Of a DNA stretch of 64,000 bases, positions 12,001 through 15,000 are shown piece after piece. The DNA lies in the NCBI RefSeq assembly GCF_003790525.1, contig NZ_CP033636.1, one strand, 5' to 3'. Origin of the DNA: Escherichia coli. GTDB lineage: Bacteria; Pseudomonadota; Gammaproteobacteria; Enterobacterales; Enterobacteriaceae. A program made the position numbers. Positions within the stretch are counted from its first letter, which is position 1. The number at the start of each line of letters is the position of its first letter.

Positions 12001-15000
12001 GACAGGCGTTCACTGATCTTTTGACCAATACCCCATATTTCTCTGGTACTGATAAGGCCCAGGAGCTTCCTGATCCTGGCCTGATCAGTCAAAACTACAA
12101 CCCCGCCTGTAGCTGCCCATCGTTTGCTCGCATAGGTGCATAATTTAGCCAGGGTTTTGGTGCTTGAACACCCCACACCACAGGTAAGGGACAGATTATG
12201 AAGAAGTGTACTTCTGATCAACCGGCCGTAATCTTCATAATCTATTATCTTGTTCATGTTTTTCAATAACATGAAATTTTCATCTATGCTATATCGACTC
12301 GATTGAGGCGCGAAGCTTTCCAGCGTTTCATGGAAGCGATTTGAGTAGTCTTCATACAAAGTAAAGTTAGAGCTCCGGACTTCGATCTGGTGTTGCTGAA
12401 TCAAATCCCTGCACTTAAAAATTGGGGTCCCACGCTTAATACCAACGCTTTTAGCCAGTTTATTCATTGCAATGACGGACGAATCGTTATTGCTGGCTAT
12501 GATGAGCGGCTTTTTTGCCAGCTTGGGATCCATCGCACACTCAAATGCCGCATAGGCCCCGTTAATATCAACGTGCATGTACATGGCTAAACTGATTCAG
12601 TGCAAAGGTGACGACGCCCCATATCTCAAGGGATTCGGGATTTACACGTATCGGCTTATAGGCTGGATTAGAAGGCATCAAAAGCAGCTCAGGATACGTG
12701 TGTAAGATCTTTACCGTGAACTCTCCATCCACCAGCGCAACGACGATAGAGCCGTGTCGTGCCGTTAAAGACCGATCCACAACCAGAATAGCGCCATCAT
12801 TGATACCGGCATTGATCATACTGAGGCCCGCCGCCCTGACAAAGAAGGTTGAGGGGCGGTTACGGACTACATATTCATGCAAATTTAATTCATTATCTTC
12901 ATGCCCGGCGCACGGACTCATCACTCCACAGCTCAGTAAATCACTGAAAAAAGGTGCCATTTCGTAAGGCTTGTTGCTAATGTGCTCAAGGATAACAGAC
13001 ATAGCTACACTCGAATTCTCATACTGTATGTATAAACAGTATTGCGAGTTACAGAGAAAAGATCAAATCTCTCCGGTAACGCTATCGAGCCTGACGAAAA
13101 ATTAAGCTTTGTCACAAACACCAAAAACCATCTTTTACCGATAATGGCGAGCTGGCCTACGAAGAAGGTATACAAGCTAGGATGAAAGGATTCTGATGCC
13201 CCTCCCACCAAATTTTTTATCTCCTGAAGACCAGGCTGAGTACGATGCTTATATGTCAAGATTCAGCGAGATAAATCACTATTATGATTATCACACTGTC
13301 CCCGTGATTGACTGGTTCTTTAAACAAGCAACCGAGGCGTTGCATCACGAACTATGGATACCGGCCTGTACGAGCTTCCTGAACGGGATTGAAACATCAC
13401 TCATGGTTACGTTGAAGTCGCTGATGCTGAAACCAACAGTTAACGATCAGCATGCAGCTCCTGAGCTGGTGGACTTGGAGGGTATCTCCGTAATGAGTAA
13501 TGCCTTACTGAGAAAGGCCAAGCAGGAAGGGGTGCCGGTAGAATTACTTTCATTTCCAGCCGAGCAGGATATGTTGGTTAAGGTAGCAGCCGGGAGAACA
13601 CCTGAAGCAGAAATTGTCAGGCTGAGAAACAACCTATGCCATGGCAACATTCTGGAGTTTATCATGTCTGTTGATATCGGTACTTCAGGACCCATACGTA
13701 TTTTTACGCCTGAATGCTGTCGTGAACTGGCGCATGAACTTTCGTCCATTTCCAGGAATTGGGTGGTAGGTTTGCACAAGTACTGGGTCGACAACAATCT
13801 GATTTCCCCCTGAAGCTCCTTGAACCTTGCTTTCAGAAGCCAGGTGTATGAAACCCTATTGGATAATATTTAAAGCCAAAATATGGGGATCTCGTATTCG
13901 GTGACAGGCATGGTATAAATGATGTGTCTGAGCAACCATCATTGATAATCATGGAGTGAGTCATGAAATTAAAATACCTTCTGTTATGTGCAACTCTGTC
14001 TGTCGCCTTTACCTCCTCTGCGGTCCTTGCATCTGAAAACGGGAAAAAACCGATCCCGGGCAAATCAGATGTGATGGTTGCCGATATTTGTTTAAAACCT
14101 GAAATCCAAAGTGAAACCGATTATAAAAAAACGAAAGAACTGGTAAGGACTGAGTTTGAAGAAAACTTGCCTGTTGGATCTAAAATCAAAGAAAAAGACT
14201 TGAATGCCGTAATTGAAGCATTTGCTACTCGTAAAAGGGACACGCCGGAGCGAGCGGACCATTGCCAAGAAAACGTACGTGAAAGATACTGGGAAATGAA
14301 CCCGGTGAAAGATAAATAAAATACATTCACGTTGTATAATATAGAGGCTTCAATTCTGAAGCCTTTTTTATTTTCAGATTATTTTGATTCTGACAATAAT
14401 GAAATAAAATTGAGCATTATCGCTTAACACTGGATAAGAAAAAGAGCCATCTTTTATATTGGACAGGTTTGAATTTAAGGAATTTTGGATTCACAGTTTT
14501 CTGCGTTATTAGACGGCAAGGGCAATCTGGTATGATTCACCTAACACACGAATCTGGAAGGAAAAGTATATGGGTGACCTGGTCAGCAAAAATAGCATTG
14601 ACCGTTTAGAGCGATTTCATTCTTTGCTGGCGGGTCAGTACTGGACGTCCACTGACAGCATCCCTGAAGAGGGTATTGTGGCAGGGGATACACTGCTCAT
14701 TACGTCTTTGCGTGGCACTGTTGCAAATAGTCGGTGGTGATAAACTTATCATCCCCTTTTGCTGATGGAGCTGCACATGAACCCATTCAAAGGCCGGCAT
14801 TTTCAGCGTGACATCATTCTGTGGGCCGTACGCTGGTACTGCAAATACGGCATCAGTTACCGTGAGCTGCAGGAGATGCTGGCTGAACGCGGAGTGAATG
14901 TCGATCACTCCACGATTTACCGCTGGGTTCAGCGTTATGCGCCTGAAATGGAAAAACGGCTGCGCTGGTACTGGCGTAACCCTTCCGATCTTTGCCCGTG

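What the first reader, a model, noticed from the sequence alone, without database searches (positions are those of the whole stretch)
13022..13041. Perfect LexA box placing umuDC under SOS control
The box matches CTGT-N8-ACAG exactly, upstream of overlapping umuD/umuC, and may co-regulate mutagenesis and transfer functions with host stress.
Basis: partly seen in the sequence, partly recalled or inferred. Interest (0 to 1): 0.2.

Follow-up and report, generated by a model that had tools for sequence, protein, structure and literature searches.

The report
LexA operator of plasmid umuDC operon
A textbook-type binding site for the host's DNA-damage repressor LexA sits on the promoter of an error-prone DNA polymerase operon carried by an IncHI2 resistance plasmid; it is real and almost certainly functional, but ordinary.

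Summary
Window 13022-13041 reads TACTGTATGTATAAACAGTA: an exact CTGT-N8-ACAG core and 18/20 matches to the full LexA consensus. A matrix built from 16 published E. coli LexA sites scores it at 27.5 bits. That equals the E. coli umuDC operator (27.9) and is far above the best score in 200 random 64-kb sequences (18.7).

The box lies on the minus-strand promoter, 19 nt upstream of an intact umuD-like gene whose end overlaps an intact umuC-like gene. The window is IncHI2 plasmid backbone, 100% identical to hundreds of sequenced plasmids.

In IncHI1 relatives, similarity upstream of umuD is confined to the promoter, and the box survives through a symmetric CTGT/ACAG to CTGG/CCAG change. All 12 additional plasmid umuD-like loci fetched, plus the window's own, carry one strong box 14-26 nt before the start codon.

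The best explanation is host LexA repression relieved by DNA damage, as in E. coli umuDC, mucAB and rumAB. Binding and induction are inferred, not tested.

The suggested co-regulation of transfer genes is not supported. No box lies near the transfer genes, and R27 mucAB expression is independent of the transfer regulator.

Two further boxes exist: the known intI1 operator, and an unannotated strong box at 61795-61814.

The parts
13022..13041 (.). 20-bp palindromic LexA (SOS) box TACTGTATGTATAAACAGTA. In the direction of the gene it reads TACTGTTTATACATACAGTA.
   Evidence: Matrix score 27.5 bits against a random maximum of 18.7. Invariant in three IncHI2 lineages and retained as a symmetric variant in IncHI1.
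13061..13066 (-). Inferred -35 hexamer TTGATC, the same hexamer as at E. coli umuDC.
   Evidence: Read. It lies in a 16-nt block (ATTTGATCTTTTCTCT) that is identical in IncHI1 and IncHI2 and marks where the alignment begins. E. coli umuDC has TTGATC-17 nt-TACTGT. This is below the 9/12 threshold of the consensus scan, so it is an inference.
13038..13043 (-). Inferred -10 hexamer AATACT, 17 nt after the -35. Its last four bases are the first four bases of the LexA box.
   Evidence: Read; by analogy with E. coli umuDC and rumAB of R391 (PMC8460599). No transcription start has been mapped.
12568..13002 (-). umuD-like gene (144 aa), the autoproteolytic subunit of a Pol V-type polymerase.
   Evidence: NF007621 129.8 bits (cutoff 110) and Peptidase_S24. 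47% identical to E. coli UmuD. Cys25-Gly26 cleavage site, Ser61 and Lys98 are conserved.
11325..12584 (-). umuC-like gene (419 aa), the Y-family polymerase catalytic subunit. It overlaps the end of umuD by 17 nt.
   Evidence: NF002955 464.7 bits (cutoff 431); IMS, IMS_C and DUF4113 domains. 47% identical to E. coli UmuC over the full length. Asp6, Tyr11, the SIDE motif and a QLSLF clamp-binding motif are aligned. The overlap is read.

Best explanation
The 20-bp palindrome is the operator at which the host cell's LexA repressor shuts off a plasmid-borne umuDC-type operon of the IncHI2 backbone.

Proposed mechanism, by analogy with E. coli umuDC, mucAB and rumAB:
1. A LexA dimer bound at 13022-13041 covers the -10 element and the likely transcription start of a promoter whose -35 is TTGATC. 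RNA polymerase is therefore excluded in undamaged cells.
2. DNA damage produces RecA filaments that trigger LexA self-cleavage.
3. Because the box is about as close to consensus as the E. coli umuDC operator, it should be among the last operators vacated.
4. The operon is then transcribed as one message, with umuC translationally coupled to umuD through the 11-17 nt overlap.
5. RecA filaments also promote cleavage of the UmuD-like protein at Cys25-Gly26, and UmuD'2-UmuC forms an error-prone translesion polymerase.

Shown here: the sequence, its statistical strength, its position, its conservation, and the integrity of both genes. Inferred: LexA binding, the promoter elements and transcription start, induction, and timing.
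For: - Motif: exact CTGT-N8-ACAG, 18/20 to the consensus, spacer 7/8 A/T. It scores 27.5 bits against 27.9 for E. coli umuD and a random maximum of 18.7.
- Position: 19 nt upstream of the umuD ATG. E. coli has the same TTGATC -35 and its box ends 21 nt before the ATG (PMC3009722).
- Genes: both exceed the curated NCBIfam Pol V cut-offs and keep the catalytic and cleavage residues.
- Footprint: in IncHI1 plasmids (umuD DNA 76.7% identical), the intergenic region aligns only from the -35 to the ATG. The box differs at 4 of 20 positions. Two of these, positions 6 and 15, are dyad partners, giving CTGG-N8-CCAG. That form is found at E. coli ruvA and cho and scores 25.6 bits.
- Generality: 13 of 13 plasmid umuD-like loci (the window plus 12 fetched, 9 distinct lineages, protein identity 44-100%) have exactly one strong box (19.6-27.8 bits) 14-26 nt upstream of the start. 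The next-best site in each locus scores 13.6 bits or less.
- Repressor source: no LexA-type DNA-binding domain is encoded in the window, so the repressor must be the host's.
- Precedent: LexA sites overlapping the -10 of rumAB (PMC8460599) and the general SOS-box logic (PMC6590174).
Against: - There is no experimental evidence for this operator. Five literature searches found no paper that tested LexA binding or damage induction of the IncHI umuDC/mucAB promoter.
- The inferred promoter hexamers match only 8/12 and were not picked up by the consensus scan.
- Within IncHI2 lineages, the absence of substitutions in the box is not significant on its own: 9 substitutions in 231 columns, with about a 0.44 chance that all miss a 20-bp target (my arithmetic).
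- On R391, element-encoded repressors override LexA control. A strong box therefore does not guarantee strong induction from the native plasmid.
Confidence: 0.9

Rival explanations
1. The box is a shared operator. Besides umuDC, it also represses the divergently transcribed, conserved 205-aa gene of unknown function (13196..13813, + strand), so that both arms respond to DNA damage.
For: The box is palindromic and lies in the 193-nt divergent intergenic region. The umuC-umuD / 205-aa ORF arrangement is syntenic in IncHI1, and the 205-aa protein is 54% identical there.
Against: The box is 154 nt from the 205-aa ORF start. No + strand promoter-like site overlaps it. Between IncHI1 and IncHI2, the intergenic sequence on the 205-aa side of the -35 does not align, so no shared divergent promoter architecture is visible. 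There is only one box.
Confidence: 0.08
2. LexA binds, but plasmid- or host-encoded factors dominate, so DNA damage gives little Pol V from the native plasmid. Candidates are H-NS/Hha-type silencing or an unknown plasmid repressor at the conserved -35 block. This is the situation on R391, where SetR and CroS sit on the -35. It is compatible with the best explanation.
For: The R391 precedent (PMC8460599). A 16-nt block covering the -35 and 10 nt of the spacer is identical in IncHI1 and IncHI2. IncHI gene expression is known to be shaped by temperature, H-NS and HtdA (PMC7366339).
Against: A perfect 16-nt run within a 66-nt stretch at about 76% identity is not improbable (roughly 0.15 by my estimate). 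R27 mucAB were reported as HtdA-independent and not temperature-induced. No candidate repressor was identified.
Confidence: 0.15
3. One reading: the box couples mutagenesis and conjugative transfer to host stress.
For: The operon lies at the edge of a transfer region of the IncHI2 backbone. In SXT/R391 elements, SOS does control transfer through SetR.
Against: No site above chance lies in 1..11000; the best there scores 8.8 bits. The transfer ORFs are on the other strand and on the far side of umuC, with convergent genes between. R27 mucAB are not co-regulated with tra genes. No SetR-like repressor appears in the window.
Confidence: 0.03
4. A chance A/T-rich palindrome with no regulatory role.
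For: None beyond the general fact that motif matches can occur by chance.
Against: It scores 27.5 bits against a random maximum of 18.7 in 200 simulated windows. It has the same position in all 13 plasmid umuD loci compared. Dyad symmetry is preserved by the change in IncHI1.
Confidence: 0.02

Closest known systems
E. coli chromosomal umuDC operator/promoter
   Same: - Same -35 hexamer TTGATC.
- A single 20-bp box overlapping the -10.
- The box ends 21 nt (E. coli) or 19 nt (here) before the umuD ATG.
- Near-identical matrix score, 27.9 against 27.5.
- UmuD with a Cys-Gly cleavage site, and umuD-umuC overlap.
   Different: - The proteins are only 47% identical.
- The box is shifted 2 nt relative to the -35, so the inferred -10 is AATACT rather than TACTGT.
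- The gene overlap is 11-17 nt instead of 1 nt.
- It is plasmid-borne, with a different divergent neighbour.
mucAB of IncN plasmids (pKM101/R46 type)
   Same: A plasmid Pol V operon with one LexA box just upstream of the first gene. The IncN locus fetched has TACTGTATAAGTAAACAGTG, 15 nt before mucA.
   Different: MucA is 53% identical over residues 17-135 and has an Ala-Gly cleavage site, not Cys-Gly. The IncN box scores lower, at 21.3 bits. The older IncHI literature calls these genes mucAB, but they are no closer to MucAB than to UmuDC.
umuDC/mucAB homologues of IncHI1 plasmids (R27, pHCM1)
   Same: The true orthologue. UmuD is 81% identical. The DsbA / umuC / umuD / 205-aa ORF synteny is the same, the -35 block is the same, and the box is in the same place.
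   Different: The box is TACTGGTTAAATATCCAGTA (CTGG/CCAG type, 25.6 bits), and the rest of the intergenic region is unrelated.
rumAB of ICE R391
   Same: A LexA site overlapping the -10 of a mobile-element Pol V operon (PMC8460599).
   Different: R391 adds a SetR/CroS operator on the -35 that ties Pol V to the element's transfer switch. No such repressor or site was found here.
intI1 LexA operator of class 1 integrons
   Same: This is a second, experimentally validated LexA operator type on mobile DNA (PMC3108266). One copy is present in this same window at 17392..17411, 10 nt upstream of intI1.
   Different: It controls a different gene and is much weaker by the matrix, at 16.3 bits.

Membership tests
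Gammaproteobacterial (E. coli-type) LexA box | 16-bp core CTGT-N8-ACAG within a 20-bp palindrome close to TACTG(TA)5CAGTA | tested here: met
   Exact core and 18/20 to the consensus. 27.5 bits on a matrix built from 16 published E. coli sites.
Gammaproteobacterial (E. coli-type) LexA box | More frequent or stronger than chance in the local sequence | tested here: met
   0 of 100 shuffles give a match with up to 3 mismatches. The random maximum is 18.7 bits in 200 simulated windows.
Gammaproteobacterial (E. coli-type) LexA box | Located on or next to the promoter of the regulated gene | tested here: inconclusive
   It lies 19 nt before the ATG and overlaps an inferred TTGATC-17-AATACT promoter that parallels E. 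coli umuDC. However, the hexamers match only 8/12, the scan did not call them, and no transcription start is known.
Gammaproteobacterial (E. coli-type) LexA box | Conserved in orthologous promoters | tested here: met
   Identical in three IncHI2 lineages. A symmetric variant is kept in IncHI1, while the flanking intergenic DNA is unalignable. A box is present at 13 of 13 plasmid umuD loci.
Gammaproteobacterial (E. coli-type) LexA box | Binds LexA; the gene is derepressed in lexA(Def) hosts or after DNA damage | not testable with these tools
UmuD / Pol V autoproteolytic subunit (S24 peptidase) | Score above the curated family cut-off; S24 domain without an N-terminal DNA-binding domain | tested here: met
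   NF007621 129.8 bits against a cutoff of 110. Peptidase_S24 covers residues 21-131 of 144. Only the C-terminal domain of LexA aligns.
UmuD / Pol V autoproteolytic subunit (S24 peptidase) | Ser-Lys catalytic dyad and a Cys/Ala-Gly cleavage site | tested here: met
   Gly26, Ser61 and Lys98 are invariant in an 8-sequence alignment. Cys25-Gly26 aligns with E. coli Cys24-Gly25.
UmuC / Pol V catalytic subunit (Y-family polymerase) | Score above the curated family cut-off, full-length architecture and catalytic acidic residues | tested here: met
   NF002955 464.7 bits against a cutoff of 431. IMS + IMS_C + DUF4113 domains. Asp6, Tyr11, the SIDE motif and QLSLF are aligned with E. coli UmuC.
UmuC / Pol V catalytic subunit (Y-family polymerase) | Confers UV or chemical mutability, or complements umuDC mutants | not testable with these tools
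   The literature only labels the R27 homologues as 'UV protection' genes (PMC7366339).
IncHI2 plasmid backbone | Near-identity and synteny with typed IncHI2 plasmids | tested here: met
   The 3.2-kb locus is 100% identical to many plasmids of more than 200 kb. pSTM6-275 is typed IncHI2A/MOBH/MPF_F and has the same gene order.

The most novel reading that the evidence does not exclude
The umuDC operator may be one node of a small plasmid-borne SOS regulon. In 64 kb there are three LexA-type boxes:
- the umuDC box (27.5 bits);
- the validated intI1 type (16.3 bits);
- a strong, unannotated box at 61795-61814 (23.2 bits, between E. coli uvrB and sulA).

The third box lies in a non-coding segment specific to one IncHI2 lineage, upstream of two genes with no recognisable family (62019..62480 and 62510..62917). 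If that box is functional, DNA damage, including quinolone treatment, would switch on unknown plasmid functions together with mutagenesis and integron recombination. The conserved divergent 205-aa gene next to umuD might also be affected.
Probability: 0.25. Interest if true: 0.35.

Novelty: already known. Interest (0 to 1): 0.1.

Why it matters
It matters little as a discovery. SOS control of umuDC-type operons through a LexA box on the promoter is textbook biology. The genes are already annotated as umuD/umuC (mucAB in the older IncHI literature) in hundreds of identical plasmid records.

The practical point is modest. IncHI2 plasmids, major carriers of multidrug resistance in Salmonella, E. 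coli and Enterobacter, bring a second error-prone polymerase whose operator is predicted to be as tight as the chromosomal one. SOS-inducing drugs such as fluoroquinolones would therefore be expected to raise Pol V dosage in their hosts, alongside the SOS-controlled integron integrase 4 kb away. That expectation has apparently never been tested for IncHI plasmids.

Tried and rejected
- The consensus promoter scan of 12800-13400 found nothing at the umuD promoter. The promoter was therefore inferred by hand and by comparison with E. coli.
- I looked for a second, weaker box next to the main one, as at lexA and recN. There is none: the next best site in 3 kb scores 5.7 bits.
- I looked for LexA boxes near transfer genes. 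None is above chance.
- The CTGT-N8-ACAG match at 9846 was rejected as chance. Its spacer is G/C-rich, it lies inside ORF 9752..10363(-), and it scores below 8 bits.
- I searched for a plasmid-encoded LexA/cI-like repressor in the window. Only the UmuD S24 domain matches.
- The neighbours 13196..13813 and 13963..14319 gave no hits in NCBIfam, Pfam, PADLOC or PHROGs.
- For the second box at 61795: no Rfam family at E<=1; no unusual RNA structure downstream (z = 0.10); no repeat copies in 55-64 kb. The downstream proteins have no Pfam or PADLOC family, and only a marginal PHROG hit.
- The idea that this ~230-bp segment is a mobile module was dropped. It is confined to about 650 records of essentially one IncHI2 lineage. 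The odd context in pN53023 is explained by an adjacent ISNCY insertion.
- Five literature searches for an experimental test of the IncHI operator found none.
- I considered a conserved regulator site at the -35 block. Its 16-nt identity is not statistically remarkable.

Full report
**1. What is there**

Window 13022-13041 reads TACTGTATGTATAAACAGTA. The 16-bp core at 13024-13039 matches CTGT-N8-ACAG exactly. The 20-mer has two mismatches to the LexA consensus TACTG(TA)5CAGTA (consensus as given in PMC6590174).

The element sits in a 193-nt intergenic region. On the minus strand, 19 nt downstream of it, begins a 144-aa ORF (12568..13002). That ORF is followed by a 419-aa ORF (11325..12584) that overlaps it by 17 nt, or by 11 nt from the second in-frame ATG. 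On the plus strand a 205-aa ORF starts at 13196.

**2. More than chance**

- The core pattern occurs 4 times in the window against 0.65 expected.
- The 20-mer with up to 3 mismatches occurs twice against 0.00 expected.
- I built a symmetrised matrix from the 16 E. coli LexA sites listed in Table 4 of PMC3009722. The site scores 27.5 bits. By comparison, E. coli umuD and sbmC score 27.9, recA 21.8, lexA 20.2 and polB 14.0.
- In 200 first-order Markov random windows the best score averaged 11.7 and never exceeded 18.7.
- A heterology-type index from the same 16 sites is 2.3, against 2.0 for E. coli umuD. This is my own table, not the published Lewis table.

**3. The genes**

The 144-aa protein passes the curated NCBIfam model for the Pol V autoproteolytic subunit (129.8 bits, cutoff 110). 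It is a Peptidase_S24 domain with no DNA-binding domain. It is 47% identical to E. coli UmuD and keeps the Cys-Gly cleavage site (Cys25-Gly26), Ser61 and Lys98.

The 419-aa protein passes the UmuC model (464.7 bits, cutoff 431). It is 47% identical to E. coli UmuC end to end, with Asp6, Tyr11, the SIDE motif and a QLSLF clamp motif aligned. Both genes are therefore intact.

**4. Where the window comes from**

The 3.2-kb locus is 100% identical to many plasmids of more than 200 kb from E. coli, Salmonella, Klebsiella and Enterobacter. Altogether 946 records match. One of them, pSTM6-275, is typed IncHI2A/MOBH/MPF_F and has the same gene order: TraG-N, HNH, lytic transglycosylase, thioredoxins, DsbA, umuC, umuD, two hypotheticals, then IS26 and a class 1 integron. 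The records annotate the genes as umuD/umuC. The older IncHI literature calls them mucAB.

**5. Promoter architecture (inferred)**

In the gene's direction the sequence is TTGATC (13066-13061), then 17 nt, then AATACT (13043-13038). The last four bases of the -10 are the first four bases of the box.

The E. coli chromosomal umuDC region, fetched for comparison, reads TTGATC-17 nt-TACTGT, with the box starting at the -10 and ending 21 nt before the ATG. The two architectures differ by a 2-nt shift.

The hexamers match only 8/12, and the generic scan did not call them. The promoter is therefore an inference until a transcription start is mapped.

**6. Comparative evidence**

Three IncHI2 lineages (100%, 99.1% and 97.3% identity) have an unchanged box, with substitutions immediately on either side of it. 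With only 9 substitutions in 231 columns, this is not significant on its own.

IncHI1 plasmids are more informative. In pHCM1 and pRDZ41, UmuD is 81% identical and the DNA 76.7% identical. Synteny is kept, and the intergenic region aligns only from the -35 block to the ATG. The box reads TACTGGTTAAATATCCAGTA. Of its four differences, two are positions 6 and 15, which are dyad partners. They convert CTGT/ACAG to CTGG/CCAG, the form seen at E. coli ruvA and cho, and the score stays at 25.6 bits. A symmetric change that keeps the palindrome is what a dimeric repressor site predicts.

I then sampled plasmid UmuD homologues down to 44% identity: IncL/M, IncN mucA, IncFII, IncFIB/HI1B, IncFIA/FII, IncA, a Serratia plasmid and an environmental enterobacterial plasmid. 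Every locus has exactly one strong box (19.6-27.8 bits) 14-26 nt upstream of the start codon. The runner-up site in each locus never exceeds 13.6 bits.

**7. Mechanism**

The best-supported model is the classical one. Host LexA occludes the promoter, since no LexA-like DNA-binding protein is encoded in the window. RecA filaments formed after DNA damage trigger LexA self-cleavage. The operon is transcribed late because the operator is near-consensus. The UmuD-like protein is then cleaved at Cys25-Gly26 and assembles with the UmuC-like polymerase. The model rests on established knowledge of umuDC (PMC6590174) and on the rumAB precedent (PMC8460599). Binding, induction and timing are not shown here.

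**8. The transfer idea**

The window holds only the tail of a transfer region: a TraG-N-type ORF at 1203..5156 on the plus strand, preceded by an IS3-family insertion. The best matrix score in 1-11000 is 8.8 bits, well inside the noise.

The umuDC operon is transcribed toward that region from the far side. Its box therefore cannot act on those genes.

In R27 (IncHI1), mucA and mucB were among the genes independent of the transfer regulator HtdA and not induced at the transfer-permissive temperature (PMC7366339).

The one known case where Pol V and transfer share regulators, R391, works through SetR/CroS rather than through the LexA box. I therefore rate this extension as unsupported.

**9. Other boxes in the window**

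- 17392-17411 (GACTGTTTTTTTGTACAGTC) lies 10 nt upstream of intI1. It is the known, experimentally validated class 1 integron LexA site, without the GGG insertion (PMC3108266).
- 61795-61814 (TACTGTATGTATGTACAGCA, 23.2 bits) is unannotated. It lies in an intergenic segment present in about 650 records of one IncHI2 lineage and absent from the R478/Enterobacter lineage. It is about 205 nt upstream of two ORFs with no recognisable family. I found no Rfam match and no unusual RNA structure there. This is the only mildly open item.
- 9846-9861 is a chance match.

**10. Verdict**

This is a well-known kind of element in an already annotated, very common plasmid backbone. I score its interest as low.

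Noticed in passing
window 61795..61814: A second strong LexA-type box, TACTGTATGTATGTACAGCA (23.2 bits, between E. coli uvrB and sulA). 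It lies in an unannotated intergenic segment about 205 nt upstream of two ORFs with no recognisable family (62019..62480 and 62510..62917). The segment is present in about 650 plasmid records of one IncHI2 lineage and absent from the R478/Enterobacter lineage. There is no Rfam match and no unusual RNA fold.
   Followed up: partly
window 17392..17411: GACTGTTTTTTTGTACAGTC, 10 nt upstream of intI1 (16368..17381, minus strand). This is the known class 1 integron LexA operator, intact with no GGG insertion, and scores 16.3 bits.
   Followed up: yes
L002 (pHCM1) 2954..2973 and L005 (pRDZ41) 663..682: The IncHI1 orthologous box is TACTGGTTAAATATCCAGTA. Positions 6 and 15, which are dyad partners, have both changed relative to IncHI2, giving a CTGG-N8-CCAG box like those of E. 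coli ruvA and cho.
   Followed up: yes
window 13196..13813 (+) and 13963..14319 (+): A divergently transcribed 205-aa ORF followed by a 118-aa ORF. The 205-aa ORF has no hit in NCBIfam, Pfam, PADLOC or PHROGs, yet it is syntenic and 54% identical in IncHI1 plasmids. Its function is unknown.
   Followed up: partly
window 9846..9861: CTGTCTGACGGCACAG matches CTGT-N8-ACAG but has a G/C-rich spacer. It lies inside ORF 9752..10363 (minus strand) and scores below 8 bits. I judge it a chance match.
   Followed up: yes
window 214..330; 17471..17546; 40755..40830: Rfam matches. An ALIL frameshift pseudoknot marks an IS3-family insertion at the start of the window, where the IncHI2 backbone match begins only at 1189. 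Two attI/AAC_AAD_leader elements on opposite strands indicate two class 1 integron platforms in the resistance region.
   Followed up: no
L006 (IncL/M plasmid) 615..634: The IncL/M umuD box TACTGTATGTATAAACAGTT is 19/20 identical to the plus-strand reading of the IncHI2 box, but it has the opposite orientation relative to its gene. The proteins are only 56% identical over the aligned region, so this is probably convergence on the consensus.
   Followed up: no
window 12568..12584: umuD and umuC overlap by 17 nt (ATGtacATG...TGA) with no obvious Shine-Dalgarno sequence, which suggests translational coupling. RefSeq annotations of the 97% lineage start umuC at the second ATG, giving an 11-nt overlap. 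E. coli overlaps by 1 nt.
   Followed up: partly
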